64,000 bases of DNA from Nemertoderma westbladi (GCA_032718475.1 JAUCBJ010002449.1:28077-92076), one strand, 5' to 3'; counted from the first letter of the stretch, positions 1 through 62,193 are shown. Notes: generated by a model from the sequence alone, not told the origin. Translations and numbers: made by a program.

Positions 1-3000
1 AAATAAGTAAACCTGTAAGGGTAAATAAGTAAACCTGTAAGGGTAAATAAGTAAACCTGTAAGGGTAAATAAGTAAACCTGTAAGGGTAAATAAGTAAAC
101 CTGTAAGGGTAAATAAGTAAACCTGTAAGGGTAAATAAGTAAACCTGTAAGGGTAAATAAGTAAACCTGTAAGGGTAAATAAGTAAACCTGTAAGGGTAA
201 ATAAGTAAACCTGTAAGGGTAAATAAGTAAACCTGTAAGGGTAAATAAGTAAACCTGTAAGGGTAAATAAGTAAACCTGTAAGGGTAAATAAGTAAACCT
301 GTAAGGGTAAATAAGTAAACCTATAAGGGTAAATAAGTAAACCTATAAGGGTAAATAAGTAAACCTGTAAGGGTAAATAAGTAAACCTGTAAGGGTAAAT
401 AAGTAAACCTGTAAGGGTAAATAAGTAAACCTATAAGGGTAAATAAGTAAACCTGTAAGGGTAAATAAGTAAACCTGTAAGGGTAAATAAGTAAACCTGT
501 AAGGGTAAATAAGTAAACCTGTAAGGGTAAATAAGTAAACCTGTAAGGGTAAATAAGTAAACCTGTAAGGGTAAATAAGTAAACCTGTAAGGGTAAATAA
601 GTAAACCTGTAAGGGTAAATAAGTAAACCTGTAAGGGTAAATAAGTAAACCTGTAAGGGTAAATAAGTAAACCTGTAAGGGTAAATAAGTAAACCTGTAA
701 GGGTAAATAAGTAAACCTGTAAGGGTAAATAAGTAAACCTGTAAGGGTAAATAAGTAAACCTGTAAGGGTAAATAAGTAAACCTGTAAGGGTAAATAAGT
801 AAACCTGTAAGGGTAAATAAGTAAACCTATAAGGGTAAATAAGTAAACCTGTAAGGGTAAATAAGTAAACCTGTAAGGGTAAATAAGTAAACCTGTAAGG
901 GTAAATAAGTAAACCTGTAAGGGTAAATAAGTAAACCTGTAAGGGTAAATAAGTAAACCTGTAAGGGTAAATAAGTAAACCTGTAAGGGTAAATAAGTAA
1001 ACCTGTAAGGGTAAATAAGTAAACCTGTAACGGTAAATAAGTAAACCTGTAAGGGTAAATAAGTAAACCTGTAAGGGTAAATAAGTAAACCTGTAAGGGT
1101 AAATAAGTAAACCTGTAAGGGTAAATAAGTAAACCTGTAAGGGTAAATAAGTAAACCTGTAAGGGTAAATAAGTAAACCTGTAAGGGTAAATAAGTAAAC
1201 CTGTAAGGGTAAATAAGTAAACCTGTAAGGGTAAATAAGTAAACCTATAAGGGTAAATAAGTAAACCTGTAAGGGTAAATAAGTAAACCTGTAAGGGTAA
1301 ATAAGTAAACCTGTAAGGGTAAATAAGTAAACCTGTAAGGGTAAATAAGTAAACCTGTAAGGGTAAATAAGTAAACCTGTAAGGGTAAATAAGTAAACCT
1401 ATAAGGGTAAATAAGTAAACCTATAAGGGTAAATAAGTAAACCTATAAGGGCAAATAAGTAAACCTGTAAGGGTAAATAAGTAAACCTGTAAGGGTAAAT
1501 AAGTAAACCTGTAAGGGTAAATAAGTAAACCTGTAAGGGTAAATAAGTAAACCTATAAGGGTAAATAAGTAAACCTATAAGGGTAAATAAGTAAACCTAT
1601 AAGGGCAAATAAGTAAACCTGTAAGGGTAAATAAGTAAACCTGTAAGGGTAAATAAGTAAACCTGTAAGGGTAAATAAGTAAACCTGTAAGGGTAAATAA
1701 GTAAACCTGTAAGGGTAAATAAGTAAACCTGTAAGGGTAAATAAGTAAACCTGTAAGGGTAAATAAGTAAACCTATAACGGTAAATAAGTAAACCTGTAA
1801 GGGTAAATAAGTAAACCTGTAAGGGTAAATAAGTAAACCTGTAAGGGTAAATAAGTAAACCTGTAAGGGTAAATAAGTAAACCTGTAAGGGTAAATAAGT
1901 AAACCTGTAAGGGTAAATAAGTAAACCTGTAAGGGTAAATAAGTAAACCTGTAAGGGTAAATAAGTAAACCTGTAAGGGTAAATAAGTAAACCTGTAAGG
2001 GTAAATAAGTAAACCTGTAAGGGTAAATAAGTAAACCTGTAAGGGTAAATAAGTAAACCTGTAAGGGTAAATAAGTAAACCTGTAAGGGTAAATAAGTAA
2101 ACCTGTAAGGGTAAATAAGTAAACCTGTAAGGGTAAATAAGTAAACCTGTAAGGGTAAATAAGTAAACCTGTAAGGGTAAATAAGTAAACCTGTAAGGGT
2201 AAATAAGTAAACCTGTAAGGGTAAATAAGTAAACCTGTAAGGGTAAATAAGTAAACCTGTAAGGGTAAATAAGTAAACCTGTAAGGGTAAATAAGTAAAC
2301 CTATAAGGGTAAATAAGTAAACCTATAAGGGTAAATAAGTAAACCTATAAGGGTAAATAAGTAAACCTATAAGGGTAAATAAGTAAACCTGTAACGGTAA
2401 ATAAGTAAACCTGTAAGGGTAAATAAGTAAACCTGTAAGGGTAAATAAGTAAACCTGTAAGGGTAAATAAGTAAACCTGTAAGGGTAAATAAGTAAACCT
2501 GTAAGGGTAAATAAGTAAACCTGTAAGGGTAAATAAGTAAACCTGTAAGGGTAAATAAGTAAACCTGTAAGGGTAAATAAGTAAACCTGTAAGGGTAAAT
2601 AAGTAAACCTATAAGGGTAAATAAGTAAACCTATAAGGGTAAATAAGTAAACCTATAAGGGTAAATAAGTAAACCTATAAGGGTAAATAAGTAAACCTGT
2701 AAGGGTAAATAAGTAAACCTGTAAGGGTAAATAAGTAAACCTATAAGGGTAAATAAGTAAACCTATAAGGGTAAATAAGTAAACCTATAAGGGTAAATAA
2801 GTAAACCTATAAGGGTAAATAAGTAAACCTGTAAGGGTAAATAAGTAAACCTGTAAGGGTAAATAAGTAAACCTGTAAGGGTAAATAAGTAAACCTGTAA
2901 GGGTAAATAAGTAAACCTGTAAGGGTAAATAAGTAAACCTGTAAGGGTAAATAAGTAAACCTGTAAGGGTAAATAAGTAAACCTATAAGGGTAAATAAGT

Positions 3001-3353
3001 AAACCTATAAGGGTAAATAAGTAAACCTGTAAGGGTAAATAAGTAAACCTATAACGGTAAATAAGTAAACCTGTAAGGGTAAATAAGTAAACCGACAAGG
3101 GTAAATAAGTAAACCTGTAAGGGTAAATAAGTAAACCTGTAAGGGTAAATAAGTAAACCTATAAGGGTAAATAAGTAAACCTATAAGGGTAAATAAGTAA
3201 ACCTATAAGGGTAAATAAGTAAACCTGTAAGGGTAAATAAGTAAACCTGTAAGGGTAAATAAGTAAACCGACAAGGGTAAATAAGTAAACCTATAAGGGT
3301 AAATAAGTAAACCTATAAGGGTAAATAAGTAATCCTGTAAGGGTAAATAAGTA
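1..3353. repeat. 22-bp tandem array (AAATAAGTAAACCTGTAAGGGT), about 150 copies, runs off the left edge
   Basis: Direct periodicity with G/A variants (CCTGTAA/CCTATAA). Minus strand reads TACTTATTTACCCTTACAG|GTT, which resembles a splice acceptor. Confidence 0.97.
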
Positions 3354-4022
3354 GCGTTACAGAAACTCCATCTGACCCGATTAGACGAAAACCTGGAGTC
3401 GGACGGGGATTGCTTGGTTTGATCATCCGACGGCTTTGTGATACGCCAGTCGTTCCATTTCCCAGCGTTCTAGAACCACAGACAACCCGACGCAGGAGTC
3501 CGAGCCCAAGTAGACCGAAATCACCGTGAGTCGTTTCAGGGGGCGAGGTCGAGCTCCATCAACGAACACACACGCGTCTAAGATTTCTGTTCTACTACTG
3601 ATATTACCCCATTTGACTGCTTTTTCTGTCGGCAGTATTGTCTTACGCTAGTTTTATCAACCCACTGGCTCGTTATACCCATATAAATCACATCGCGGCA
3701 AGTCTACAGTAGTTTAGGTCCATTAGCGATATAGTTAGGATTCGCTACACGGGGATTGTTTTCTCGCGAGTTTGGTCTGTTTCTGTAGACTGTACATCTG
3801 CCTCACCGGTTAGAGGCCGGGCATCCTGTTTGTCTAGTTAGCCCGGGCAATTGATTCGGCCAAGTTTAGGGGCAGACATCAGGCACCGATCTCGCCAGTA
3901 GTAGTTTGTGTACTTTTAGTATCTATTATTTAGATCTGTCCAGCCCTGGGATTTCACGGTAGATATTGTACAACCTTCTGTTATGGACTACTGGATTCTA
4001 CATTACTGTATCTGTATCTGTA

Positions 4023-6400
4023 GTTACTGTATCCGAGTTACTGTATCCGAGTTACTGTATCCGAGTTACTGTATCCGAGTTACTGTATCCGAGTTACTGT
4101 ATCCGAGTTACTGTATCCGAGTTACTGTATCCGAGTTACTGTATCCGAGTTACTGTATCCGAGTTACTGTATCCGAGTTACTGTATCCGAGTTACTGTAT
4201 CCGAGTTACTGTATCCGAGTTACTGTATCCGAGTTACTGTATCCGAGTTACTGTATCCGAGTTACTGTATCCGAGTTACTGTATCCGAGTTACTGTATCC
4301 GAGTTACTGTATCCGAGTTACTGTATCCGAGTTACTGTATCCGAGTTACTGTATCCGAGTTACTGTATCCGAGTTACTGTATCCGAGTTACTGTATCCGA
4401 GTTACTGTATCCGAGTTACTGTATCCGAGTTACTGTATCCGAGTTACTGTATCCGAGTTACTGTATCCGAGTTACTGTATCCGAGTTACTGTATCCGAGT
4501 TACTGTATCCGAGTTACTGTATCCGAGTTACTGTATCCGAGTTACTGTATCCGAGTTACTGTATCCGAGTTACTGTATCCGAGTTACTGTATCCGAGTTA
4601 CTGTATCCGAGTTACTGTATCCGAGTTACTGTATCCGAGTTACTGTATCCGAGTTACTGTATCCGAGTTACTGTATCCGAGTTACTGTATCCGAGTTACT
4701 GTATCCGAGTTACTGTATCCGAGTTACTGTATCCGAGTTACTGTATCCGAGTTACTGTATCCGAGTTACTGTATCCGAGTTAAGGTATCCGAGTTAAGGT
4801 ATCCGAGTTAAGGTATCCGAGTTACTGTATCCGAGTTACTGTATCCGAGTTACTGTATCCGAGTTACTGTATCCGAGTTACTGTATCCGAGTTACTGTAT
4901 CCGAGTTACTGTATCCGAGTTAAGGTATCCGAGTTACTGTATCCGAGTTACTGTATCCGAGTTACTGTATCCGAGTTACTGTATCCGAGTTACTGTATCC
5001 GAGTTAAGGTATCCGAGTTACTGTATCCGAGTTAAGGTATCCGAGTTAAGGTATCCGAGTTAAGGTATCCGAGTTACTGTATCCGAGTTAAGGTATCCGA
5101 GTTACTGTATCCGAGTTACTGTATCCGAGTTACTGTATCCGAGTTACTGTATCCGAGTTACTGTATCCGAGTTACTGTATCCGAGTTAAGGTATCCGAGT
5201 TAAGGTATCCGAGTTACTGTATCCGAGTTACTGTATCCGAGTTACTGTATCCGAGTTACTGTATCCGAGTTACTGTATCCGAGTTACTGTATCCGAGTTA
5301 CTGTATCCGAGTTACTGTATCCGAGTTACTGTATCCGAGTTACTGTATCCGAGTTACTGTATCCGAGTTACTGTATCCGAGTTACTGTATCCGAGTTACT
5401 GTATCCGAGTTACTGTATCCGAGTTACTGTATCCGAGTTACTGTATCCGAGTTACTGTATCCGAGTTACTGTATCCGAGTTACTGTATCCGAGTTACAGT
5501 ATCCGAGTTACTGTATCCGAGTTACTGTATCCGAGTTACTGTATCCGAGTTACTGTATCCGAGTTACTGTATCCGAGTTACTGTATCCGAGTTACTGTAT
5601 CCGAGTTACTGTATCCGAGTTACTGTATCCGAGTTACTGTATCCGAGTTACTGTATCCGAGTTACTGTATCCGAGTTACTGTATCCGAGTTACTGTATCC
5701 GAGTTACTGTATCCGAGTTACTGTATCCGAGTTACTGTATCCGAGTTACTGTATCCGAGTTACTGTATCCGAATTACTGTATCCGAGTTACTGTATCCGA
5801 GTTACTGTATCCGAGTTACTGTATCCGAGTTACTGTATCCGAGTTACTGTATCCGAGTTACTGTATCCGAGTTACTGTATCCGAGTTACTGTATCCGAGT
5901 TACTGTATCCGAGTTACTGTATCCGAGTTACTGTATCCGAGTTACTGTATCCGAGTTACTGTATCCGAGTTACTGTATCCGAGTTACTGTATCCGAGTTA
6001 CTGTATCCGAGTTACTGTATCCGAGTTACTGTATCCGAGTTACTGTATCCGAGTTACTGTATCCGAGTTACTGTATCCGAGTTACTGTATCCGAGTTACT
6101 GTATCCGAGTTACTGTATCCGAGTTACTGTATCCGAGTTACTGTATCCGAGTTACTGTATCCGAGTTACTGTATCCGAGTTACTGTATCCGAGTTACTGT
6201 ATCCGAGTTACTGTATCCGAGTTACTGTATCCGAGTTACTGTATCCGAGTTACTGTATCCGAGTTACTGTATCCGAGTTACTGTATCCGAGTTACTGTAT
6301 CCGAGTTACTGTATCCGAGTTACTGTATCCGAGTTACTGTATCCGAGTTACTGTATCCGAGTTACTGTATCCGAGTTACTGTATCCGAGTTACTGTGTCC
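4023..6400. repeat. 14-bp tandem array (GTTACTGTATCCGA), about 170 copies, intronic
   Basis: Near-perfect periodicity with a patch of GTTAAGGTATCCGA variants at about 4780-5200. Confidence 0.97.
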
Positions 6401-6474
6401 GGGATGATTCATTCCCGCGCGCTCTCAATACTTAAGATATTAATAAATGTGATGATCTAGAAATATTAAATAAC

Positions 6475-6667
6475 CTTTAGTTTCCTCATATTTCATATAC
6501 TCTAGCGTATTGTCGTCCTCCTGTCTGTGTATATCGGACAGCGTTGTTAACGTAGAAGTGTACCATTGTTCTGCTATGTCAGTATTGAGTAGCGATAGAT
6601 GCAGGTCTCCCAGGGATTCCTGGACACCGCATAGCAGCTTCAATGAGTCGAGATCCCGGTCTGTTTG
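6475..6667 (-). CDS. Host gene exon (QTDRDLDSLKLLCGVQESLGDLHL...EETK), TPR-like helices
   Basis: TTGTACAG| acceptor, AAAG|GTTAT donor; phase 0 to 1. Confidence 0.8.
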
Positions 6668-54600: not shown

Positions 54601-57600
54601 CCCCGATACTGGTTTATCAGTGGATGATGGCGCGATGTAACTTAGTATGGAGGCCCTGGTCTCCCCTGATTACTGGTTTATCAGTGGATGGTGGCGCGAT
54701 ATAACTTAGTATGGAGGCCCTGGTCTCCCCCGATACTGGTTTATCAGTGGATGGTGGCGCGATATAACTTAGTATGGAGGCCCTGGTCTCCCCCGATACT
54801 GGTTTATCAGTGGATGGTGGCGCGATATAACTTAGTATGGAGGCCCTGGTCTCCCCCGATACTGGTTTATCAGTGGATGATGGCGCGATATAACTTAGTA
54901 TGGAGGCCCTGGTCTCCCCTGATTACTGGTTTATCAGTGGATGATGGTGCGATATAACTTAGTATGGAGGCCCTGGTCTCCCCTGATACTGGTTTATCAG
55001 TGGATGATGGCGCGATATAACTTAGTATGGAGGCCCTGGTCTCCCCCGATACTGGTTTATCAGTGGATGATGGCGCGATGTAACTTAGTATGGAGGCCCT
55101 GGTCTCCCCTGATTACTGGTTTATCAGTGGATGATGGCGCGATATAACTTAGTATGGAGGCCCTGGTCTCCCCCGATACTGGTTTATCAGTGGATGGTGG
55201 CGCGATATAACTTAGTATGGAGGCCCTGGTCTCCCCCGATACTGGTTTATCAGTGGATGGTGGCGCGATATAAAGTGAATGGTGGCGCGATATAACTTAG
55301 TATGGAGGCCCTGGTCTCCCCCGATACTGGTTTATCAGTGGATGATGGCGCGATATAACTTAGTATGGAGGCCCTGGTCTCCCCTGATTACTGGTTTATC
55401 AGTGGATGGTGGCGCGATATAACTTAGTATGGAGGCCCTGGTCTCCCCTGATTACTGGTTTATCAGTGAATGGTGGCGCGATATAACTTAGTATGGAGGC
55501 CCTGGCCTCCCCTGATTACTGGTTTATCAGTGAATGGTGGCGCGATATAACTTAGTATGGAGGCCCTGGTCTCCCCTGATTACTGGTTTATCAGTGGATG
55601 ATGGCGCGATATAACTTAGTATGGAGGCCCTGGTCTCCCACGATACTGGTTTATCAGTGGATGATGGCGCGATATAACTTAGTATGGAGGCCCTGGTCTC
55701 CCCCGATACTGGTTTATCAGTGGATGATGGCGCGATATAACTTAGTATGGAGGCCCTGGTCTCCCCTGATACTGGTTTATCAGTGGATGGTGGCGCGATA
55801 TAACTTAGTATGGAGGCCCTGGTCTCCCCTGATTACTGGTTTATCAGTGGATGGTGGCGCGATATAACTTAGTATGGAGGCCCTGGTCTCCCCTGATTAC
55901 TGGTTTATCAGTGGATGATGGCGCGATATAACTTAGTATGGAGGCCCTGGTCTCCCCCGATACTGGTTTATCAGTGGATGATGGCGCGATATAACTTAGT
56001 ATGGAGGCCCTGGTCTCCCCTGATTACTGGTTTATCAGTGAATGGTGGCGCGATATAACTTAGTATGGAGGCCCTGGCCTCCCCTGATTACTGGTTTATC
56101 AGTGAATGGTGGCGCGATATAACTTAGTATGGAGGCCCTGGTCTCCCCTGATTACTGGTTTATCAGTGGATGGTGGCGCGATATAACTTAGTATGGAGGC
56201 CCTGGTCTCCCCTGATTACTGGTTTATCAGTGGATGATGGCGCGATATAACTTAGTATGGAGGCCCTGGTCTCCCCTGATTACTGGTTTATCAGTGGATG
56301 ATGGCGCGATATAACTTAGTATGGAGGCCCTGGTCTCCCCTGATTACTGGTTTATCAGTGAATGGTGGCGCGATATAACTTAGTATGGAGGCCCTGGTCT
56401 CCCCTGATTACTGGTTTATCAGTGGATGGTGGCGCGATATAACTTAGTATGGAGGCCCTGGTCTCCCCTGATTACTGGTTTATCAGTGGATGATGGCGCG
56501 ATATAACTTAGTATGGAGGCCCTGGTCTCCCCTGATTACTGGTTTATCAGTGGATGGTGGCGCGATATAACTTAGTATGGAGGCCCTGGTCTCCCCTGAT
56601 TACTGGTTTATCAGTGGATGGTGGCGCGATATAACTTAGTATGGAGGCCCTGGTCTCCCCTGATTACTGGTTTATCAGTGGATGATGGCGCGATATAACT
56701 TAGTATGGAGGCCCTGGTCTCCCCTGATTACTGGTTTATCAGTGGATGGTGGCGCGATATAACTTAGTATGGAGGCCCTGGTCTCCCCCGATACTGGTTT
56801 ATCAGTGGATGGTGGCGCGATATAACTTAGTATGGAGGCCCTGGTCTCCCCCGATACTGGTTTATCAGTGGATGATGGCGCGATATAACTTAGTATGGAG
56901 GCCCTGGTCTCCCCTGATACTGGTTTATCAGTGGATGATGGCGCGATATAACTTAGTATGGAGGCCCTGGTCTCCCCCGATACTGGTTTATCAGTGGATG
57001 ATGGCGCGATATAACTTAGTATGGAGGCCCTGGTCTCCCCTGATACTGGTTTATCAGTGGATGGTGGCGCGATATAACTTAGTATGGAGGCCCTGGTCTC
57101 CCCTGATTACTGGTTTATCAGTGGATGGTGGCGCGATATAACTTAGTATGGAGGCCCTGGTCTCCCCTGATTACTGGTTTATCAGTGGATGATGGCGCGA
57201 TATAACTTAGTATGGAGGCCCTGGTCTCCCCCGATACTGGTTTATCAGTGGATGATGGCGCGATATAACTTAGTATGGAGGCCCTGGTCTCCCCTGATTA
57301 CTGGTTTATCAGTGAATGGTGGCGCGATATAACTTAGTATGGAGGCCCTGGCCTCCCCTGATTACTGGTTTATCAGTGAATGGTGGCGCGATATAACTTA
57401 GTATGGAGGCCCTGGTCTCCCCCGATACTGGTTTATCAGTGGATGATGGCGCGATATAACTTAGTATGGAGGCCCTGGTCTCCCCCGATACTGGTTTATC
57501 AGTGGATGATGGCGCGATATAACTTAGTATGGAGGCCCTGGTCTCCCCTGATTACTGGTTTATCAGTGAATGGTGGCGCGATATAACTTAGTATGGAGGC

Positions 57601-60600
57601 CCTGGCCTCCCCTGATTACTGGTTTATCAGTGGATGGTGGCGCGATATAACTTAGTATGGAGGCCCTGGTCTCCCCTGATTACTGGTTTATCAGTGGATG
57701 ATGGCGCGATATAACTTAGTATGGAGGCCCTGGTCTCCCCTGATTACTGGTTTATCAGTGGATGATGGCGCGATATAACTTAGTATGGAGGCCCTGGTCT
57801 CCCCTGATTACTGGTTTATCAGTGAATGGTGGCGCGATATAACTTAGTATGGAGGCCCTGGTCTCCCCTGATTACTGGTTTATCAGTGGATGGTGGCGCG
57901 ATATAACTTAGTATGGAGGCCCTGGTCTCCCCTGATTACTGGTTTATCAGTGGATGATGGCGCGATATAACTTAGTATGGAGGCCCTGGTCTCCCCTGAT
58001 TACTGGTTTATCAGTGAATGGTGGCGCGATATAACTTAGTATGGAGGCCCTGGTCTCCCCTGATTACTGGTTTATCAGTGGATGGTGGCGCGATATAACT
58101 TAGTATGGAGGCCCTGGTCTCCCCTGATTACTGGTTTATCAGTGGATGGTGGCGCGATATAACTTAGTATGGAGGCCCTGGTCTCCCCCGATACTGGTTT
58201 ATCAGTGGATGGTGGCGCGATATAACTTAGTATGGAGGCCCTGGTCTCCCCCGATACTGGTTTATCAGTGGATGGTGGCGCGATATAACTTAGTATGGAG
58301 GCCCTGGTCTCCCCTGATTACTGGTTTATCAGTGGATGATGGCGCGATATAACTTAGTATGGAGGCCCTGGTCTCCCCCGATACTGGTTTATCAGTGGAT
58401 GGTGGCGCGATATAACTTAGTATGGAGGCCCTGGTCTCCCCTGATTACTGGTTTATCAGTGGATGGTGGCGCGATATAACTTAGTATGGAGGCCCTGGTC
58501 TCCCCCGATACTGGTTTATCAGTGGATGGTGGCGCGATATAACTTAGTATGGAGGCCCTGGTCTCCCCTGATTACTGGTTTATCAGTGGATGATGGCGCG
58601 ATATAACTTAGTATGGAGGCCCTGGTCTCCCCCGATACTGGTTTATCAGTGGATGGTGGCGCGATATAACTTAGTATGGAGGCCCTGGTCTCCCCCGATA
58701 CTGGTTTATCAGTGGATGGTGGCGCGATATAACTTAGTATGGAGGCCCTGGTCTCCCCTGATTACTGGTTTATCAGTGAATGGTGGCGCGATATAACTTA
58801 GTATGGAGGCCCTGGTCTCCCCCGATACTGGTTTATCAGTGGATGGTGGCGCGATATAACAACTAATATTGCTAAATTATTAGTCTCTACACCTACCTTG
58901 ATGGTTGGTGGATACTTTGCTACTGGAATGGACCGACCCCGTCTGGATTTCGTCTCTCGCCAACCAGCCGTAGTCTCTACACCAGCGCCCCACTATCTGT
59001 ATCCATAGCGATTGTATACTGGAACAGCTGGTATACTGAGTCAGTTGCGTATCCAAATGCTGAAATATTGATAAATTACATGATAAAGTATTGCCTTGGC
59101 AAAGACAAGTCTATATAGAGAAAAGCGCAAACACAAACTCATTGGCTACAGCTGTTATGAATATCTCACCTGGTACAATCCACATACTCTCAGCTCATTG
59201 GCCACAGCTGTTAAGAACAATGGAAGGGAACTGAGTTTACAGCTGACCAGCTGATCCAATTGTTTCGCACTCAGACTTTTGCAATGAACTTCGAGGTGGC
59301 GTTTAATAACCTGAAAGTAGAAAATAATACAAAGTTAAATGTTTTATATTAAAAACAAAATGACTAATTTAAAAAGCTGAAAATAAAACAGTTTTTCTTT
59401 CTGGAGAACGTCAAGTTAATACTAGATGCGACTACATTGGCTATATAATGACTTTCACTGTCTGACTCTAATTACCTTCGCGATGATATTATAGTAAAGT
59501 AGATGAGTTACAAATAATGTAGTCAATGATTCCCCCCTCCCCCACCCCCCTTAATATCATAATAACAACGACCGACGTATAATAAAATAGTTGTAATAAC
59601 AATTATGATAAACAACTTCTGACCTGCTTTTTGGTTTCGACGGAAGTAATTGGCTGTATCCTAGTAACCGTACAATCCCATCTCGCAGACAAACTCTTGT
59701 AACTGATACTAGATGGCGTCGCAGAGATAATAAAGCGACACGTTGGCGGGAGCGGTTCGGGTAGCCAAGACATTTCCCTCACCTATTAGATTTAGTTAGA
59801 TTAAAGTAGTTAGATTAAAGTAGTTAGATTAAAGTAGTTAGATTAAAGTAGTTAGATTAAAGTAGTTAGATTAAAGTAGTTAGATTAAAGTAGTTAGATT
59901 AAAGTAGTTAGATTAAAGTAGTTAGATTAAAGTAGTTAGATTAAAGTAGTTAGATTAAAGTAGTTAGATTAAAGTAGTTAGATTAAAGTAGTTAGATTAA
60001 AGTAGTTAGATTAAAGTAGTTAGATTAAAGTAGTTAGATTAAAGTAGTTAGATTAAAGTAGTTAGATTAAAGTAGTTAGATTAAAGTAGTTAGATTACAG
60101 TAGTTAGATTAAAGTAGTTAGATTAAAGCAGTTAGATTAAAGTAGTTAGATTAAAGTAGTTAGATTAAAGTAGTTAGATTAAAGTAGTTAGATTAAAGTA
60201 GTTAGATTAAAGTAGTTAGATTAAAGTAGTTAGATTAAAGTAGTTAGATTAAAGTAGTTAGATTAAAGTAGTTAGATTAAAGTAGTTAGATTAAAGTAGT
60301 TAGATTAAAGTAGTTAGATTAAAGTAGTTAGATTAAAGCAGTTAGATTAAAGTAGTTAGATTAAAGTAGTTAGATTAAAGTAGTTAGATTAAAGTAGTTA
60401 GATTAAAGTAGTTAGATTAAAGTAGTTAGATTAAAGTAGTTAGATTAAAGTAGTTAGATTAAAGTAGTTAGATTAAAGTAGTTAGATTAAAGTAGTTAGA
60501 TTAAAGTAGTTAGATTAAAGTAGTTAGATTAAAGTAGTTAGATTAAAGTAGTTAGATTAAAGTAGTTAGATTAAAGTAGTTAGATTAAAGTAGTTAGATT

Positions 60601-62193
60601 AAAGTAGTTAGATTAAAGTAGTTAGATTAAAGTAGTTAGATTAAAGTAGTTAGATTAAAGTAGTTAGATTACAGTAGTTAGATTAAAGTAGTTAGATTAA
60701 AGTAGTTAGATTAAAGTAGTTAGATTAAAGTAGTTAGATTAAAGTAGTTAGATTAAAGTAGTTAGATTAAAGCAGTTAGATTAAAGTAGTTAGATTAAAG
60801 TAGTTAGATTAAAGCAGTTAGATTAAAGTAGTTAGATTAAAGTAGTTAGATTAAAGTAGTTAGATTAAAGTAGTTAGATTAAAGTAGTTAGATTAAAGTA
60901 GTTAGATTAAAGTAGTTAGATTAAAGTAGTTAGATTAAAGTAGTTAGATTAAAGTAGTTAGATTAAAGTAGTTAGATTAAAGTAGTTAGATTAAAGTAGT
61001 AAGTAACCAACCTGATTGCGGTTGACCCCAGATGAACCACTAAGTTCGTCAACCGAATCGAGAATTAGAACGCAGGGAACCGAGTTAACCGCCGCTACGA
61101 AAGATTCAGTTATTCGGTGGAAGTCGGTGAGATCCTCTGGATCCTTTAGGAGCTCCGATTGGTAACCTGGGAGACCGAGGGGGAGGGGGGTAGACGTAAA
61201 GGACAAGTAGAAGTTAGAACATAATTAAACAGGACAAATTAGGCAATGTTCTGACTACAATAGAAGTGGACGGGAATTTTGAGGGCGGCACTGGTATGAT
61301 TCTAGCTTGTCGGTGGCCTACAGTTCCGGGACAAAATTTAGGGATAAAGACCTATTATCTACATACTATACTACACACACACATGCGGATAGCCATTCAA
61401 CCACCACCCCACCCCCCCTCCCCCATTCCGTTCAGCTAAAGCGGCGGTAAAATAGTTGATTATTACCTGTCATTTCCTCCCTGAGTTCTAGAATACAACG
61501 ACGCATAAAACTTGTGACGTCGGCACTGCGGGCACTGGCGCCCACGTAATGGGCGAGGACCTTGCGATCTGATTGGTGGGTTTTATCGTAGTGTTTCACC
61601 CAATTAGCGAGCTGGGCAGTCTTCCCGCAGCCTCTATCACCGACCAGTAACAGAAGGGGAGGATCTATAACAGCAGTGGGGCGGGGCGCAGGAGTTGGGG
61701 GAGACATGTTATTGGGTGACTTTCTAAGGAAAACAAACAGAGGATGGAGACATGTTATTGGGTGACTTTCTAAGGAAAACAAACAGAGGATGGAGACATG
61801 ATATTGGGTGACTTTGTAAGGAACACAAACAGAGGATGGAGACATGTTATTGGGTGACTTTGTAAGGAACACAGAGGATGGAGACATGTTATTGGGTGAC
61901 TTTGTAAGGAACACAAACAGAGGATGGAGACATGTTATTGGGTGACTTTGTAAGGAACACAGAGGATGGAGACATGTTATTGGGCGACTTTGTATAACTC
62001 TAAGAATCTTACTTAGGTAAATATCCATTAAAGAATGGCGATTGCTCTTCATAGGGCGATGTTGTCATTATTGCGTTGGCATGGTTACTGAGTACTTCCT
62101 GTAAGTGACGCACTTCCGGTGTGTTTATAAAGACTTGGCGTCTAGAATCAGCGTATGATTCATGAGCGGCCCATTCCAGGAATAATTCCCCGT
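6475..62193 (-). CDS. Multi-exon NACHT/STAND NTPase with TPR-like region (TTC41/NPHP3-like), partial; 13 exons reconstructed
   Basis: Exons: 62193-62013, 61723-61467, 61166-61012, 59782-59624, 59310-59170, 59059-58897, 42626-42381, 20958-20760, 13757-13595, 12507-12387, 7588-7433, 7086-6944, 6667-6475. All are AG/GT bounded with matching phases and no stops. Motifs: Walker A GDRGCGKT, HYVGAS, Walker B VLILDSVDEL, WLPEPLPPTCRFIIS, PLFL..ANELR, LSFFHQHLKEAV, ELPWQ, DLLCYW. The family label comes from remembered motifs, not a search. Confidence 0.88.
6722..6845 (-). mobile_element. Possible degenerate tRNA-derived SINE remnant
   Basis: B-box-like GGTTCGAACC and a weak A-box-like TGTGTAAATGG upstream on the minus strand; no full cloverleaf. 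Confidence 0.25.
6944..7086 (-). CDS. Host gene exon (GDGNKSLSDLTQ...FYAGQLLAELGYLSQSEEMFSLAYHQITQ)
   Basis: TTTTGTTTTAG| acceptor, CAG|GTAT donor; phase 1 to 0. Confidence 0.85.
7433..7588 (-). CDS. Host gene exon (GGKLRPRSASFPLEVIKE...VDNRN)
   Basis: GGTTTAG|GAG acceptor lies inside the last copy of the 32-bp array; ACG|GTTTGT donor; phase 1 to 1. Confidence 0.78.
7571..12296. repeat. 32-bp tandem array (CTAAACCAATAAACGGGGTCTAAGTTTACCAC), about 148 copies; unit is the acceptor plus 18 nt of exon
   Basis: Periodicity. Minus-strand unit GTTTATTGGTTTAG|G(A/T)GGTAAACTTAGACCCC overlaps the exon start at 7588. Confidence 0.96.
12387..12507 (-). CDS. Host gene exon (AVFKPHKDDKSSVNTTDSDS...PKFPPLSI), Ser/Asp-rich linker
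   Basis: TATACAG| acceptor, TTG|GTAAGA donor; phase 0 to 1. Confidence 0.82.
12801..13316. repeat. 28-bp tandem array (CTAGCTCGGGCACCAGTCGTATAAAGTG), about 18 copies
   Basis: Direct periodicity. Confidence 0.95.
13595..13757 (-). CDS. Host gene exon (RLFLELCGEK...KLDLLCYWRTLLSAGY...QTNN)
   Basis: TTTATAG| acceptor, AAT|GTTAGT donor; phase 2 to 0; resembles the NPHP3-type ELLSYW motif. Confidence 0.85.
13770..20730. repeat. 57-bp tandem array (AGCTAAGAGATACACAACAGAACCACCCGATAATGTTGTACAGATCGGTGCCTCTAA), about 122 copies, filling a 7-kb intron
   Basis: Periodicity with three recurring variants (TAAAGC/TATAGC/TATCTC). Ends about 12 bp from the acceptor and about 30 bp from the donor. Confidence 0.97.
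20760..20958 (-). CDS. Host gene exon (GILTSSDSP...HLYIARYYWQQ...RKSQELPWQCQRSG...EP)
   Basis: GGTTCCAG| acceptor, CAG|GTAAGG donor; ELPWQ motif; phase 1 to 2. Confidence 0.88.
20987..23448. repeat. 63-bp (67-bp variant) tandem array, left arm, interrupted by the BEL element
   Basis: Unit GGAAACAGAGTGGAAGGGTTTACTGTGGAAGATCACCCATGGTGGTGAACAGGCATTCCTTTA. Confidence 0.95.
23449..23985 (+). repeat. 5' LTR
   Basis: TGTTAGC...GTCACA, repeated at 36189-36725. Confidence 0.96.
23714..23748 (+). promoter_or_regulatory. Putative LTR core promoter (TATA-like plus initiator)
   Basis: TATAA at 23714 and TCAGTT initiator about 30 bp downstream (A at 23744). Confidence 0.45.
24071..27445 (+). CDS. Long low-complexity N-terminal part of BEL gag-pol, split by frameshifts at two poly-G runs
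   Basis: The frame from 24071 meets the 26563 frame at G11 (26445-26455), which meets the 27446 frame at G10 (27315-27324). Contains an Arg/Glu coiled coil, an Asn-rich tract and QGAEGLVGHVVSR repeats. Confidence 0.7.
27446..32653 (+). CDS. BEL/Pao Gag-Pol: DUF1759-type gag, CCHC knuckles, aspartic protease, RT, RNase H, integrase
   Basis: PFKFDGSRPEEY; CSRCVKSGHKAREC; LVDSGA; YYLPLH, LRMVVDAS, CDIEGMF, YVDD; FSDAS, PKLEL, WTDS, NPADLLSRG; H-H-C-C and VDMFGP, SDNGTNF, ERLV; YWRRWVEEYL. Confidence 0.96.
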   Translation: MTYPSQRRSRNRTDEPHQTRETIQHPSNPLEAQAMGMATLIDALKTRIELPPVEPFKFDGSRPEEYLQFRRMYSNEILTKNLTQAECLKYLQVYTGGPAYDIVRQYQGIEGGFTTAWRALDREYGHPAKIIRQTLRGITSGGLQDNPVSIKTFANKVEKALIVLKTLDAPYELNASNNITTIAQALPSWLRNKWRKVAFSTRDKKGAEPGLEEMSNFLNYEAELITDPVYSEDSLGKGPKADHYRPKPEHSTSNALPRLRQSLPYAATQGTASPQASEDRTTSRDGQGNNNNMNKHNPSTSSRSNPVNKNSRDFGTNITAIRNALYKEGYDPKSKCQLHANALHKTMNCRYWQALPRQDQIDYASSNKICSRCVKSGHKARECQEKPVKFGQRRGQTMATSTVGAKKRGTVLLGVVPVRVIGEGNRSVTTLMLVDSGAAFTLVEEWIAEEIGLRTRPSRMAVTTISSKDEVLEMRTGRCAIAAVAPGCDYGATIDPIQVIESININARRPTNIEVEQYKFLDNIDFSIPDVDIRKVSIIVGMDCPTAHERMQTVFGEDKQSDPVAILTPFGWTLSGPIKSKIPFRMSETSGCMFAGTMQEMGDEGAEEQLKRLLRQDFEGLKETGVGTSVEDKQALQSVEESMTCDEGRYTIGMVWKLPKIPLPDNRGMVLTRLRKLKQTLQRSPEKNEYIHKTIKKYVEKGWAVELPVDEPNTDRTYYLPLHVALDPKKGKLRMVVDASAKTDGKCLNDYLLEGPNIYNSGIEVLLRFRNGKHAFTCDIEGMFNQVRVTEEDSDSQRFLWYNGEEEPPIIPAYKMVVQNMGAKSSSFTTTMAVRDTVKGKEDRYSSRAVDMIRRGFYVDDGMESGNTVEEILETGREVRDILKGSGFNLTKFQSSSEEFIKEIEDKKPESTMDNPTTAKGQDMAIKRTESQQKALGIVWDRKTDELKYQLSQEGADTHTKRGYVSYIARIYDPLGLASPLLVTGKQILKRVYKLKDEWDVEVPEDIRKQWSKWTGDLERMGTYNMPRVYFPDGNMTNLDLHMFSDASLEAYGAALYLVQREGPHKPRLAFSKAKSTPPDSASVPKLELTAARLGVRATAYLVDTIPNIVETHYWTDSMVVLGWLHNEKTRYPIFVANRVDEIRASTELERWHYCPTDQNPADLLSRGVERHTFLKKEELWQHGPQFLSDREAWPPMRKVDPGSEVISEGEGDSEGEEIYSQMVREIRDVQPGRELCDNPTDKLLSYSSSWYKTKKLVAYWRAFGNFLAGVGKDKKTRITIDLEGATKAVIRYEQRKNYGDEVERVDNQQHLRRDSELITLSPQLNEDGILVMNSRVGYNNSIVVPPKPIIIPTGSPIVHQIIWDSHKSILHGGTNRTLTEIRRTYWVKQLRKKVKAVVGQCQTCRRAKKERAVQEMAPLPASRVRQHDPPFTHCGVDMFGPIKIKVMRHTEKRYGIIFVCNNTRAVGIELAQDATASAFINALERFRDRKGGTIAVIYSDNGTNFVGAESEMAEALDILEGEEVRAAMRRRQVKWERRTPYAPHTLGCVERLVGSSKRLMTKLMNTHMVTEDVLRTVLAKCEGIINSRPLYPENDDPESLDVLTPSHFLMERPATIDMRGVDPDDIHSRQSWKVAKAISAEYWRRWVEEYLPTLHKRSKWRKPNRELREGDLVIVTDDTIINNQWRLARVVGTYSDEDGRVRSVEVRIGGKIGAKDRKTYRRAVGKCCLLEGAP
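32775..33222 (+). repeat. Internal degenerate array of about 32-bp units, each with a TAGGTAC-GTA-GTACCTA hairpin
   Basis: Repeated AGGTACGTAGTACCTAGAGTTAGTTAGTTAGT between pol and the 3' ORFs. Confidence 0.88.
33730..34176 (+). CDS. Accessory ORF A of the BEL element (about 148 aa, unknown function)
   Basis: ATG at 33730 (MASKLIRKRK...), open frame, purine-rich composition like gag-pol; no recognised motif. Confidence 0.5.
   Translation: MASKLIRKRKAESGGKEILVDFTERHPEEKTRGYYERLERGHAARALQDHFREAHEQRLVGTYGTPSLDNAIFQHFHYVVKGDEAKFGIPKYPRESPRKDWKRFIESVNRGGYMILDDEGTVEDEAGSRRGTAGRPGHRVMASRNRRA
34083..35480 (+). CDS. Accessory ORF B of the BEL element with three CCHC zinc knuckles; start uncertain
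   Basis: Frame open from 34083 (first ATG 34281). CDYCGRQTHRESSC, CLYCREPSHRMGAC, CPKCHFRGHYGREC; acidic EEEDDDDE patch; basic C-terminus (PPAKRYR). Confidence 0.8.
   Translation, partial: RGNRGRRSGFETRNGREARTQSYGFEEQAGLDELHWTSSGSSGESLGRELGWTVGSPKQSTSGLHAMPIPAGAEGDQPPRKLRELEGWRATGESQGGKGHSGSTEIPGLETLPEEEDDDDEFGEIPPIERIGHSDTDWVGGRVVTASGARAFWNRSGKRTWVHEGPAMDFAGSTIRLGEQPGTAPRIVFGETMPERGGEIDVNRESNVEKFAYQRLHRPRRSLGTKDEVGRETLVLGCDYCGRQTHRESSCLYRFQRGTFCLYCREPSHRMGACPRLHNRCPKCHFRGHYGRECDWMSDEEKFTRFEEWADVGAMTRQRMKAQEFKWGFFLINQETHMEIIKRRLPFTYQEVATAASFAGVMNTQRYLDRWTPENRREFRDFLAEHVPKAMKMILWDATRGRQPGHSEGPPAKRYRALITPAPKEPTTGISKEVAAKVRKQKADDARGAVITKKRAREEDVRRNR
36189..36725 (+). repeat. 3' LTR
   Basis: Copy of 23449-23985, preceded by the PPT. 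Confidence 0.96.
36726..42286. repeat. 63/67-bp tandem array, right arm
   Basis: Same unit as 20987-23448, resuming in register after the TSD; 130-bp dimers at about 38035-38870. Confidence 0.95.
42381..42626 (-). CDS. Host gene exon (DGVADGWVADVLRLIACSRHGLSRTELL...GLLSFFHQHLKEAVESKLL), winged-helix region
   Basis: CTCTCTCCACTAG| acceptor, TAG|GTACGT donor; phase 1 to 1. Confidence 0.9.
42621..43238. repeat. 42-46-bp tandem array, about 14 copies; unit is a complete 3' splice site plus 6 nt of exon
   Basis: Minus-strand unit CCCCACCACAGTTTAACTGTT(CT)nCCACTAG|ATGGCG. Confidence 0.93.
43225..43465. repeat. 21-bp GC-rich array (GGGGCGCCACCGCGGTGTGGT), about 11 copies
   Basis: Periodicity; shares GTGGTGGGGCGCCA with the adjacent array; contains the palindrome CACCGCGGTG. 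Confidence 0.92.
43698..47552 (+). CDS. CRE-like polyprotein: Cys-rich N-terminus, reverse transcriptase, CCHC/RHN motif, restriction-like endonuclease
   Basis: CCQCGIRAC...CRC...CTSC; KEPGVRPIGIGEVLYR; LLVDASNAFN; QGDP; WYADD; RFLGG; LPVRHGGIG; CEGC..HALNC..RHNEVR; RADL, FDIAV, KKVHY, FTPLV. First ATG at 43698 (frame open from at least 43653). Confidence 0.93.
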   Translation: MSQGSGQSSSQRCCQCGIRACTTSSRCRCVRAGQPCTSCSPLSVGNCLNPHLISGASISPLVDDTLLHESTGDNSDGDSSDTDSFSSAITQITQIPRVVDTVFPPLSLPGSASSPPFPTTVELLESAFGGQWLNSPGSSTDPYWEANYSRLTCLTCCQYIVPGGNVGRKIADLVARELVFLTDGIHPSERSLCCVATIFQRDPDVTKSADIRRTMLRRIGMWEREEYKQLVVEAERCSSKFAKSRGSAKVNPGRLYNRKILVGQNRAAVRLITERDSGGILDPNSQAEGRAPGITVREVLAEKHPPQMQVSPDAFEPCDDLPAFEDVDITGQHVLKVTRVLRGGAGPIGGDAELWSALLTRYEAHSSRLREAVAGLARRLANSVVPWGEIRALRACRLVAIDKEPGVRPIGIGEVLYRLLTNCLTAATKMDFIMECGADQLCAGVKAGVEGAVHAMASLYEDDSTEGMLLVDASNAFNSLSRPVALWNARVYWHRCSRYLFNAYNGHATLFLQGSDVPLWSREGYTQGDPAAMLGYGCGTLPMIRRLRDIRIPECPGNPPSSLPGVPSSTLPGNLPSTLHGDSPSTVPCNPQSTLPGNPPSTLPDNPPSTLPGNPPLTLSGNPPSTQSGNPPLILPGNPPSTLPGFPPSTLPGNPLLTLPGNPPSSLLGDPPSTLPDNPPSTLPGNPPSTPPGNLPSTLPGDPLSTLPGNPPSFLLGDPPSTLPDNPSLTLPGNPPSTLPGNQPSNLPGDPPSTLPGNPPSTPPGNPTPHHQRQCWYADDASSAGSLAGVLRWWEELLLSGPRIGYNPEPTKSYLVVKPAYVEQAHEMFGRSGVRIVSGHRFLGGYVGDSQGLRGFIAEKVAGWVYSIGRLAEVAEDYPQTAHTGMSRCLQAEWDFLLRVVEIDDEDLAPIREALQHSYIPALFGIPLGAVDEDLVLLPVRHGGIGIRDPLMRRCHAREASLAGTAGVVDALLSDRPLQVADHAACLASALAESRITQDAAYKARLESALLAVPAERRRTVERTVSHKTGGWLTAQPSAVDHTDLDPEVFRDNLALRYGLTPPGLPAKCEGCGESFSTSHALNCKSGGLIIKRHNEVREVFGDLIASAFGGSCVQREVTLASGYLDRQGREVGGVRADLLARGVWAEQRVASFDIAVVNADAPSYVNRSLDSVLQQRVRAKKVHYAAVCEDRRISFTPLVGTTDGVWCKEADILIRHLAETLVARQRGMRERGLACVLGGVRRRLLFALLRSNSLCLRGGRRPWRALGFGDGAGLRGFDLQDRY
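45363..45998 (+). repeat. In-frame 24-bp coding minisatellite (PGNPPSTL, about 26 copies) inside the RT
   Basis: Unit CCCGGCAACCCGCCGTCGACCCTA; copies are diverged with no stops or frameshifts. Confidence 0.95.
48674..49321 (+). CDS. RAB32: Intronless Rab32/38-family small GTPase (215 aa), nested antisense in a host intron
   Basis: EHLFKVLVIG, GKTS, KRYVHQLF, ATVGVDFALKV, WDIxGQE, NMTRVYYKEA, WKLDLDSK, LLANK, TSAK, C-terminal CC. The symbol denotes the Rab32/38 family, not proven orthology. Confidence 0.93.
   Translation: MASNIGKIEHLFKVLVIGSPATGKTSIVKRYVHQLFTTHYKATVGVDFALKVIQWNDSILVRVQLWDIQGQELYENMTRVYYKEATGAFVVYDVTQPSTFNAVERWKLDLDSKAFLSNGANIPAVLLANKYDLLDEMTEEELVRKERFMERFCEDKGFLAWFNTSAKTNMNIDVAARRLVEQILINVEEQTEQEDNDAINLRDSRTSERKPGGCC
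49497..49787. repeat. 41-bp tandem array, about 7 copies, just 3' of the Rab ORF
   Basis: Unit GGCCATTGAACTGAATGGTCTACGCCCTACACCCAAGGATT. Confidence 0.93.
50058..51943. repeat. 22-bp diverged tandem array (GGTTACTAACCACTGGCTAATA), about 85 copies
   Basis: Periodicity with many variants. Confidence 0.94.
52478..58860. repeat. 64/63-bp tandem array, about 100 copies
   Basis: Unit AGTATGGAGGCCCTGGTCTCCCCTGATTACTGGTTTATCAGTGGATGGTGGCGCGATATAACTT; ends about 36 bp from the donor at 58896. Confidence 0.97.
58897..59059 (-). CDS. Host gene exon (HLDTQLTQYTSCSSIQSLWIQIVGRWCRDYGW...NHQ)
   Basis: ATTTCAG| acceptor, AAG|GTAGGT donor; phase 0 to 1. Confidence 0.88.
59170..59310 (-). CDS. Host gene exon (VIKRHLEVHCKSLSAKQLDQLV...LPLFLTAVANELRVCGLYQ)
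   Basis: CTTTCAG| acceptor, CAG|GTGAGA donor; phase 0 to 0. Confidence 0.9.
59624..59782 (-). CDS. Host gene exon (VREMSWLPEPLPPTCRFIISAT...ETKKQ)
   Basis: CTAATAG| acceptor, CAG|GTCAGA donor; phase 0 to 0. Confidence 0.9.
59794..61000. repeat. 14-bp tandem array (AGTTAGATTAAAGT), about 86 copies, making up nearly all of intron 59783-61011
   Basis: Near-perfect periodicity; minus-strand unit ACTTTAATCTAACT. Confidence 0.97.
61012..61166 (-). CDS. Host gene exon with Walker B (GYQSELLKDPE...PCVLILDSVDELSG...RNQ)
   Basis: GTCTCCCAG| acceptor, CAG|GTTGGT donor; phase 1 to 0. Confidence 0.9.
61467..61723 (-). CDS. Host gene exon with Walker A (KSPNNMSPP...LLLVGDRGCGKTAQLANWV...HYVGAS...EEMT)
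   Basis: TTTGTTTTCCTTAG| acceptor inside the last array copy, CAG|GTAAT donor; phase 2 to 1. Confidence 0.88.
61700..61994. repeat. 46/42-bp tandem array, about 6.5 copies; unit is the acceptor plus 24 nt of exon
   Basis: Minus-strand unit ATCCTCTGTTTGTTTTCCTTA(G/C)|AAAGTCACCCAATAACATGTCTCC. Confidence 0.92.
62013..62193 (-). CDS. Host gene exon (GELFLEWAAHESYADSRRQVFINTPEVRHLQEVL...GYLPK)
   Basis: TTCTTCCTTTTAG| acceptor, TAA|GTAAGA donor; phase 1 to 2, matching the next exon. Confidence 0.85.

What the first reader, a model, noticed from the sequence alone, without database searches (positions are those of the whole stretch)
1..62012. Introns inflated by private tandem arrays seeded on the gene's own splice signals
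Seen: each expanded intron of one gene carries its own array (units 14, 22, 28, 32, about 44, 46, 57, 63, 64 bp), while introns without arrays are only 110-346 bp. Arrays typically start or stop within about 10-40 bp of a splice site. In three independent introns the unit straddles the intron/exon boundary, and a fourth is built on a branch-point-like motif. Known: tandem duplication across an AG|GT proto-splice site is a proposed route to intron gain, and 3' splice-site choice normally favours the first AG after the branch point. Inference: some local process (splicing- or transcription-coupled breakage, slippage, or small-circle amplification) targets splice-junction DNA, and the spliceosome copes with tens to over a hundred decoy junctions. 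I do not know this as a described system, but I cannot search the literature.
Basis: partly seen in the sequence, partly recalled or inferred. Interest (0 to 1): 0.85.

Follow-up and report, generated by a model that had tools for sequence, protein, structure and literature searches.

The report
Splice-acceptor "mirage" repeats in TTC41 introns
The long introns of an animal's TTC41 gene are mostly filled with unrelated head-to-tail repeats, and three of them (likely four) copy the intron's end plus the start of the next exon up to 148 times; the one spliced transcript seen uses the last copy (read directly at two, inferred from its length at the third), so this is likely a tolerated, oversized case of the "mirage" repeats known from lancelets and humans, not a new splicing system.

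Summary
A minus-strand TTC41 gene (13 exons, 758 codons, no stop) is supported by one spliced contig: six junctions read directly, and seven exons by an exact 1,192-nt length sum. Thirteen unrelated arrays fill 61% of intron DNA; two retrotransposons fill about 29%. Three units (46, 44, 32 bp; 6, 14, 148 copies) straddle acceptors, and the last copy is used. A fourth (22 bp, 152+ copies) likely does too; its exon lies outside the window. Of 147 AG-bearing decoys, 146 would give a premature stop. Nine arrays touch no junction. With arrays collapsed, five host introns are only 39-184 nt, so 3 straddlers is near chance (P 0.05-0.77 by null; acceptor-only 0.008-0.06 if the fourth counts). In-frame arrays also sit in retrotransposon ORFs. 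The introns flanking one exon look ancient, so not intron gain. The repeat type is published: amphioxus "mirages" and human F7-type VNTRs. This scan has noted it before in several other genes of this genome, some with far larger arrays, and in other genomes. A genome-wide junction bias stays open because no genome was available.

The parts
62013..62193 (-). TTC41 exon E1 (first exon modelled; its 5' edge is uncertain)
   Evidence: 3' end read as the loose end of the spliced contig at 61723; tblastn of homologues 62206-62078
61700..61994 (-). 46-bp array, 6 junction copies plus a partial one; unit straddles the E2 acceptor (24 nt exonic); 2 copies end in AG, 4 in AC
   Evidence: spliced contig starts E2 at 61723
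61467..61723 (-). exon E2 (P-loop, GxxGxGKT)
   Evidence: weak NPHP3_N/AAA Pfam hits
61012..61166 (-). exon E3
   Evidence: joint skipping 300 nt, and loose end matching E4
59793..61000 (-). 14-bp array (86 copies) with CTAAC; 11 nt from donor, 10 nt from acceptor; collapsed intron about 39 nt
59624..59782 (-). exon E4
   Evidence: start read as loose end; homology
59170..59310 (-). exon E5
   Evidence: homology; length sum in spliced contig
58897..59059 (-). exon E6
   Evidence: homology; length sum
52478..58860 (.). 64-bp array (about 100 copies), starts 36 nt after the E6 donor; no junction in unit
50060..51944 (.). 22-bp array (86 copies), mid-intron
49497..49791 (.). 41-bp array (7 copies), mid-intron
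48674..49321 (+). intronless Rab32/38-like gene nested antisense in intron E6-E7
   Evidence: ORF; Pfam Ras E 3.7e-37; best hits Rab32, at most 60% identical
43500..47700 (+). non-LTR retrotransposon (1309-codon frame; ends approximate) with an in-frame 24-bp x 26 array at 45366-45997
   Evidence: atlas look-alikes carry RVT_1/zf-RVT; no significant Pfam hit
43228..43465 (.). 21-bp array (11 copies) sharing 15 bp with the adjacent 44-bp unit
42621..43239 (-). 44-bp array, 14 copies of branch-like motif + pyrimidine tract + AG + 6 nt of E7
   Evidence: use of the last copy inferred from the exact 1,192-nt sum
42381..42626 (-). exon E7 (winged-helix region)
   Evidence: HTH_NWD1 E 0.003; 86 relatives, named TTC41-like
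42322..42389 (-). degenerate 23-bp x 3 repeat straddling the E7 donor (left out of the 13-array count)
   Evidence: sequence
20986..42286 (.). 63-bp array (about 126 copies) split by an LTR element; ends 27 nt before the E8 acceptor
23449..36725 (+). BEL/Pao LTR retrotransposon: 537-bp LTRs with 1 mismatch, 5-bp target duplication
   Evidence: Peptidase_A17, DUF1759, DUF5641, integrase; LTRs
20760..20958 (-). exon E8
   Evidence: homology; length sum
13769..20729 (.). 57-bp array (122 copies); 30 nt from donor, 11 nt from acceptor; collapsed intron about 98 nt
13595..13757 (-). exon E9
   Evidence: homology; length sum
12798..13315 (.). 28-bp array (18 copies), about 280 nt from either splice site
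12387..12507 (-). exon E10
   Evidence: 3' end read as the loose end at 7589
7570..12296 (-). 32-bp array, 148 copies straddling the E11 acceptor (13 nt intron + 19 nt exon); 134 keep the AG, 106 read AG|GT
   Evidence: spliced contig joins E10 to the last copy
7433..7588 (-). exon E11
6944..7086 (-). exon E12
   Evidence: joints skipping 346 and 276 nt
6475..6667 (-). exon E13 (last exon inside the window)
   Evidence: the next exon's start is not in the window
4012..6401 (.). 14-bp array (171 copies), starts 73 nt after the E13 donor
1..3353 (-). 22-bp array (152+ copies, runs off the window); unit is a pyrimidine tract + YAG + GTTT, likely a fourth acceptor-straddling array
   Evidence: the next exon in the spliced contig begins with the same four bases; the real junction itself was not seen

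Best explanation
These are locus-born minisatellites in a TTC41 gene, and the three that span an acceptor (likely four) are 'mirage' repeats: a 14-64-bp stretch was likely duplicated in place and then amplified, splicing uses the copy next to the intact exon (read directly at two, inferred at one), and the decoys are likely tolerated passengers. Inferred steps: (1) short local duplications (slippage or microhomology repair) and unequal exchange act throughout this DNA. (2) Selection removes frame-breaking arrays from coding sequence but not from introns. (3) Many host introns were about 40-180 nt, so a sizeable share of surviving seeds must overlap a junction. (4) Only the last acceptor copy is followed by a complete exon and its donor, so exon definition would favour it. 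(5) Use of a decoy would almost always give a premature stop and so would likely be cleared by nonsense-mediated decay.
For: SHOWN. One spliced contig (4,760 nt, run X3) starts E2 at 61723 and E11 at 7588, the last copies. Its positions 1510 to 2703 leave 1,192 nt, exactly E4+...+E10, which fixes E7 at 246 nt. The joined exons give 758 codons without a stop, 37% identical over 791 columns to a Branchiostoma TTC41-like protein. 146 of 147 AG-bearing decoys give a stop in the extended exon. Collapsed introns are 39, 67, 97, 98 and 184 nt. Expected straddlers: 1.6-1.7 acceptor-only (own-intron null, P>=3 = 0.20-0.23) and 1.7-3.4 either junction (P>=3 = 0.25-0.77). Arrays in retrotransposon ORFs are all in frame (8 of 8 rows against 4 of 16 intronic rows). 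The 44-bp unit is bounded by a 5-nt microhomology, and the 21-bp array shares 15 bp with it. Both end copies of the 32-bp array keep the exon's letters while the interior is homogenised to variants, as described for mirages. FROM PAPERS: mirages do not disturb regular splicing (PMC3087553 section 16; PMC3902484 passage).
Against: Acceptor-only pooled null: P>=3 = 0.05-0.11, and P>=4 = 0.008-0.024 if the 22-bp array counts (own-intron 0.046-0.062). Two acceptor arrays (44 bp, and the inferred 22 bp) sit in introns that remain long after collapse, where own-intron chance is 1.4% and 2.6%. Unchecked scan notes report many more junction arrays in this genome, which a purely random model may not cover. 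RNA support is one contig from one run and cannot show minor isoforms. Exon definition and decay were not tested. Collapsed lengths are estimates; 39 nt may be too short for a real ancestor.
Confidence: 0.64

Rival explanations
1. A mutational process biased to exon-intron borders (transcription- or splicing-coupled breakage or slippage) seeds arrays at junctions more often than chance.
For: 3 confirmed plus 1 inferred acceptor arrays of 13, plus a degenerate 23-bp x 3 donor repeat; pooled acceptor null P = 0.008-0.024 with the fourth; 8 of 13 within 40 nt gives P = 0.03-0.10. Scan notes (unchecked leads) list donor and acceptor arrays in PRPF8, NF-kB, beta-catenin, TFCP2, CstF-77, RhoGEF and BRSK of the same genome.
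Against: The acceptor-only test is post hoc and the window was picked for this feature. Either-junction tests are not significant (P 0.08-0.77). 9 of 13 arrays miss junctions. Arrays also form in retroelement ORFs and non-coding parts without splice sites. The notes are selected for junction arrays.
Confidence: 0.2
2. Large acceptor arrays are tolerated because their decoys read AG|GT: a wrongly chosen decoy would recreate a donor and be re-spliced (recursive or dual-specific sites), so the intron may be removed in steps.
For: The two large acceptor arrays are mostly AG|GT (106 of 147 decoys in the 32-bp array; 149 of 150 scored copies in the 22-bp array), while the two small ones (14 and 6 copies) are not. 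The gene's real donors are loose (4 of 13 start GTT). In the 32-bp array the interior shifted from the exon's GAG to GT variants. Precedent for tandem dual-specific sites: UBC (PMC10809524, abstract).
Against: n = 4 arrays. Homogenisation to a variant is expected from drift. No intermediate was seen; the contig joins E10 to E11 with no added bases. The final mRNA cannot tell one step from several.
Confidence: 0.1
3. The arrays are dispersed satellite or mobile units that inserted near junctions, or their lengths are assembly artefacts.
For: The 46-bp unit has single contigs of depth 808 (X1) and 657 (X2) against 12-28 and 22 for unique flanks, more than the 6 copies here would give. No long reads or genome were available.
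Against: Each straddling unit contains this gene's own exon bases in register. No unit recurs elsewhere in the window except the 44/21 overlap. High-depth unit contigs occur in samples of two studies, and contigs join unique flanks to the arrays. Arrays show ordered internal variants. A longer allele explains the depth equally well.
Confidence: 0.04
4. The arrays created these introns by duplication across an AG|GT proto-splice site (intron gain).
For: Units of the 32- and 22-bp arrays hold AG|GT; the route is published (PMC3265369, part 1 of 4 read).
Against: In all three confirmed cases the donor lies in unique sequence outside the array (18 nt, 90 nt and 15.7 kb upstream). Short homologous fragments break off at the E7 donor position in 31 of 35 scorable cases and show acceptor-like read-through just upstream of the conserved GW in 17 of 26 (47 short hits of 86), so both E7-flanking introns look ancient. 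Introns E1-E2 and E10-E11 were not tested this way.
Confidence: 0.02

Closest known systems
Amphioxus 'mirage' minisatellites (Adh3, globins BflGb6/BflGb9, troponin C, PGBD5). Read: PMC3087553 section 16 and matching passages; PMC3902484 one passage. The original Adh paper (PMC117041) is not held and was seen only as cited.
   Same: Tandem copies of an intron 3' end plus exon start; unit sizes in the reported 10-160 bp range; many but not all copies keep the splice signal; regular splicing; homogenised interior with divergent boundary copies; several in one gene.
   Different: Copy numbers here reach 148 and 152+, against 3-6 for BflGb6; arrays are 61% of intron DNA; the host is an animal with no close relative in the databases; most arrays in this gene are not mirages at all.
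Human junction-spanning VNTRs: F7 IVS7 (37 bp x 5-9), CBS, 6-16, lamin B2, PDGF (PMC1557585, 12 of 43 passages read)
   Same: The unit spans an exon-intron border and reiterates a real splice site; the authentic site is used.
   Different: Those are donor-side, where 5'-to-3' scanning picks the first site. Here the arrays are acceptor-side and the last site is used; copy numbers are 5- to 20-fold higher.
Variable internal tandem repeats at exon-intron boundaries in human segmental duplications (PMC2812944, part 1 of 6 and 11 passages read)
   Same: Minisatellites of about 30 bp at exon-intron boundaries that lengthen introns.
   Different: There they often create new introns or alternative transcripts in young paralogues; here the tested introns look ancient and only one isoform was seen.
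Tandem dual-specific (AGGT) splice sites in polyubiquitin UBC (PMC10809524, abstract only)
   Same: A tandem array in which each unit holds an AG|GT.
   Different: UBC sites are exonic and used stochastically; here they are intronic and use is unproven.

Membership tests
Mirage minisatellite | Tandem unit spans an exon-intron boundary of the host gene | tested here: met
   46-, 44- and 32-bp units hold 24, 6 and 19 exon bases; junctions from the spliced contig. The 22-bp array is inferred only; the other nine arrays do not meet this.
Mirage minisatellite | Minisatellite-sized unit (10-160 bp reported) | tested here: met
   22-46 bp
Mirage minisatellite | Many but not all copies retain the AG/GT signal | tested here: met
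   AG kept in 2 of 6, 14 of 14 (one CGAG), and 134 of 148 copies
Mirage minisatellite | Regular mRNA splicing is not disturbed | tested here: met
   One contig of one run: direct at two arrays, by length at the third; minor isoforms not visible
Mirage minisatellite | Concerted evolution inside the array with boundary copies excluded | tested here: met
   32-bp array: first and last copies keep GAG, interior mostly GTG/GTT in runs; last 44-bp copy has the longest TC tract
Mirage minisatellite | Length polymorphism between haplotypes or individuals | tested here: inconclusive
   46-bp unit about 30x single-copy depth in X1 and X2 against 6 copies here; depth is not copy number
Mirage minisatellite | Somatic instability (Adh3) | not testable with these tools
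   Needs single-molecule reads from tissues
Intron gain by tandem duplication of AG|GT | Both donor and acceptor come from the duplicated unit | tested here: not met
   Donors lie in unique sequence outside all three arrays
Intron gain by tandem duplication of AG|GT | Intron absent from orthologues | tested here: not met
   E7-flanking positions recur in homologous fragments (31 of 35 and 17 of 26; indirect, from protein read-through); other introns not tested
Recursive / dual-specific splice sites | AG|GT motif at each candidate site | tested here: met
   106 of 147 (32 bp) and 149 of 150 (22 bp); absent from the 44- and 46-bp arrays
Recursive / dual-specific splice sites | Splicing intermediates or lariats at those sites | not testable with these tools
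   Only assembled contigs available
TTC41 family (host gene) | Co-linear homology to TTC41-like NACHT/TPR proteins | tested here: met
   28-37% identity to 9 of 9 homologues tested, best E 6e-156; names

The most novel reading that the evidence does not exclude
This genome amplifies exon-border DNA more often than chance, and acceptor arrays can grow past 100 copies only where their decoys read AG|GT, so that mis-picked sites regenerate a donor and are re-spliced: a self-correcting, recursively spliced satellite intron.
Probability: 0.13. Interest if true: 0.72.

Novelty: new member of a known kind. Interest (0 to 1): 0.3.

Why it matters
As it stands: a clean natural example of an acceptor being picked behind up to 133 equally good upstream AGs. 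That argues against simple first-AG scanning in this animal and makes a good substrate for testing exon definition, NMD masking and recursive splicing. It also shows that intron size here is set by local repeat amplification plus retroelements. If a genome-wide junction bias were proven, it would address the open question, stated in PMC3087553, of how mirages arise. This window alone cannot show that.

Tried and rejected
(1) Whole genome: none held, so no genome-wide TRF, null test or unit BLAST. (2) No RNA holder was listed by label. X3 is labelled 'DNA?' but its contig skips GT..AG introns exactly and covers no intron, so I treat it as spliced RNA. (3) A candidate 72-nt exon at 52318-52247 was rejected: the length sum leaves no room. 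(4) A candidate last exon at 3586-3430 was rejected: the contig continues into sequence absent from the window. (5) The acceptor at 61664 for E2 was rejected on phase and by the contig; likewise 6660 for E13. (6) The word-indexed homologue search with E7 found nothing; the HMMER search found 86. (7) The metagenome scan gave 8 weak loci (E about 1e-5, partial), which I did not treat as orthologues and did not analyse, so no orthologous intron sequence was compared. (8) Branch-point motif enrichment is at chance (units were taken from mid-array copies, not consensus). (9) Acceptor:donor asymmetry of 3:0, 4:0 or 4:1 is not significant (P 0.25, 0.125, 0.375). (10) Rows left out of the 13-array null: the 23-bp x 3, 13-bp x 3.8, 15-bp x 2.2 and 10-bp x 3.1 mini-repeats and all arrays inside the two retroelements; the split 63-bp array was counted once. 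(11) Pfam and PDB did not name the non-LTR ORF. (12) A scan-index look-up of the 46-bp unit found no look-alike (weak). (13) Eight paper searches found no genome-wide test of junction enrichment for mirages. The library lacks most subscription papers, so this is not proof of absence; supplements were not read.

Full report
OBSERVATION. I count 13 large intronic arrays, taking the split 63-bp array once. They make up 36.8 of 59.9 kb of intron DNA (61%). A BEL/Pao LTR element (23449-36725; 537-bp LTRs with one mismatch; 5-bp target duplication) and a roughly 4.2-kb non-LTR element add about 29%. An intronless Rab32-like gene lies antisense in intron E6-E7. Within the window no unit recurs elsewhere, apart from 15 bp shared by the adjacent 44- and 21-bp arrays. 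No genome was held.

THE GENE. Thirteen minus-strand exons join to 758 codons without a stop and align co-linearly with 9 of 9 TTC41-like proteins tested, best 37% over 791 columns. All 12 internal introns are GT-AG. The five without a large array are 110-346 bp. The host is an animal-like eukaryote with no close relative in the databases (Rab32 at most 60% identical).

RNA. Of six runs listed I laid four on two repeat-poor stretches. One 4,760-nt contig of X3 covers exons only and matches without differences. It skips introns E2-E3, E11-E12 and E12-E13, and its loose ends join E1 to 61723, E3 to E4, and E10 to 7588. Between the end of E3 (record position 1510) and the start of E11 (2703) lie 1,192 nt, exactly the sum of E4 to E10. 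E7 therefore starts at the last 44-bp copy (inferred) and no extra exon is included. After E13 the contig continues into sequence absent from the window, so the 14- and 22-bp arrays at 1-6401 lie in one intron that runs off the edge. This is one contig from one run; minor isoforms are invisible.

JUNCTION ARRAYS. The 46-bp unit holds 24 exon bases (6 copies; 2 end in AG, 4 in AC). The 44-bp unit holds a branch-like motif, TC tract, AG and 6 exon bases (14 copies). The 32-bp unit holds 13 intron and 19 exon bases (148 copies; 134 keep AG; 11 decoys are identical to the real junction over 32 nt). The 22-bp unit is a pyrimidine tract, YAG and four bases identical to the first four of the next exon in the contig, so it is likely a fourth case; the junction itself is outside the window. 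A crude leave-one-out matrix scores 1, 9 and 128 upstream AGs at or above the real site, so local acceptor sequence does not explain the choice. Using a decoy would introduce a stop in 146 of 147 cases. Run X1 and X2 contigs join unique flanks to arrays and carry the units at high depth, so arrays exist in samples of two studies. Their lengths are unverified, and the 46-bp unit's depth (about 30x) exceeds the 6 copies here.

IS IT MORE THAN CHANCE? Collapsing each array to one unit and removing transposons leaves host introns of about 39, 67, 97, 98, 184, 597, 763 and 1,058-2,855 nt. Placing each seed at random in its own intron predicts 1.6-1.7 acceptor straddlers (P>=3 0.20-0.23; P>=4 0.046-0.062). 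Pooling all introns predicts 0.9-1.2 (P>=3 0.05-0.11; P>=4 0.008-0.024). For either junction, 1.7-3.4 are expected (P>=3 0.25-0.77; P>=4 0.08-0.47). Seven arrays (eight with the inferred one) lie within 40 nt of a site, against 5.6-6.1 expected. One CTRAC among 13 units is chance. Arrays also occur in retroelement ORFs, all with units divisible by three (8 of 8 rows, about 6 loci, against 4 of 16 intronic rows). This fits general repeat formation filtered by selection.

NOT INTRON GAIN. Donors lie outside all three units. Among 47 short homologous fragments (of 86 hits), 31 of 35 scorable ones break off at the E7 donor position with residues typical of intron read-through, and 17 of 26 show acceptor-like read-through just before the conserved GW. 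This is indirect, but it indicates that both introns flanking E7 are old. The other introns were not tested.

MECHANISM. Most likely (0.64): in-place duplication, amplification by unequal exchange, survival in introns, chance overlap with junctions of short introns, choice of the last acceptor through the adjoining complete exon, and decay of rare mis-spliced RNA. Only the anatomy, the dominant splice choice and the predicted stops are shown; exon definition and NMD are general knowledge applied here. Rivals: junction-biased mutation (0.2); recursive rescue at AG|GT decoys (0.1), suggested by 106 of 147 and 149 of 150 AG|GT copies in the two large arrays and none in the two small ones; dispersed satellite or artefact (0.04); intron gain (0.02).

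WHAT IS KNOWN. Tandem repeats spanning exon-intron boundaries were named 'mirages' in amphioxus Adh3 and reported in globins, troponin C and PGBD5, with normal splicing, length instability and an unclear origin (PMC3087553 section 16; PMC3902484 passage). Human donor-side examples include F7, CBS, 6-16, lamin B2 and PDGF (PMC1557585 passages). I reached the mirage reading before consulting the scan's notes. Those notes (unchecked) describe the same class in several other genes of this genome, on both donor and acceptor sides and with up to about 2,100 copies, and in other animals. They weaken an acceptor-specific bias and keep a general junction bias open, but they are selected cases. Eight literature searches found no genome-wide enrichment test.

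VERDICT. Real, RNA-supported and large, but a new member of a known kind. Targeting of splice signals is not demonstrated. Interest 0.3.

Noticed in passing
window 23449-36725 (+): Very young BEL/Pao LTR element (LTRs differ at 1 of 537 bases) inserted into the 63-bp array, so the array predates it. Besides the 1,788-codon gag-pol frame it has a 904-codon upstream frame with in-frame 33-, 39- and 72-bp repeats, and extra frames after pol (33712-34176; 34083-35480, the latter with Cys/His clusters and no Pfam match).
   Followed up: partly
window 45366-45997 (+): 24-bp x 26 in-frame array (Pro/Gly/Asn/Ser-rich, about 210 residues) lying between the QGDP-like and YADD motifs of the non-LTR element's reverse transcriptase, frame still open. 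The element looks like a CRE-type restriction-endonuclease retrotransposon (label recalled, not from a call).
   Followed up: partly
window 48674-49321 (+): Intronless Rab32/38-like gene nested antisense in the 16-kb intron; possibly a retrocopy; expression not tested.
   Followed up: partly
window 7457 and 7189 (run X2): X2 contigs leave the window sequence at 7457 (inside exon E11) and at 7189 (intron), suggesting insertion alleles in that individual; the loose sequences do not match elsewhere in the window.
   Followed up: partly
window 59783-61011: This intron collapses to about 39 nt, and E1-E2 to 21-67 nt, far below the array-free introns (110-346 nt). Either very short introns existed or arrays replaced unique sequence.
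   Followed up: no
window 42322-42389 and 12517-12567: Small degenerate repeats at splice sites: 23 bp x 3 across the E7 donor, and 13 bp x 3.8 just upstream of the E10 acceptor; perhaps decayed or early-stage mirages.
   Followed up: no
window 32766-33293: A compound 32-bp array inside the LTR element's non-coding stretch, far from any host splice site.
   Followed up: no
window 62194-64000: The spliced contig has 1,098 nt upstream of E2; exons above E1 were not mapped, and E1's acceptor is uncertain.
   Followed up: no
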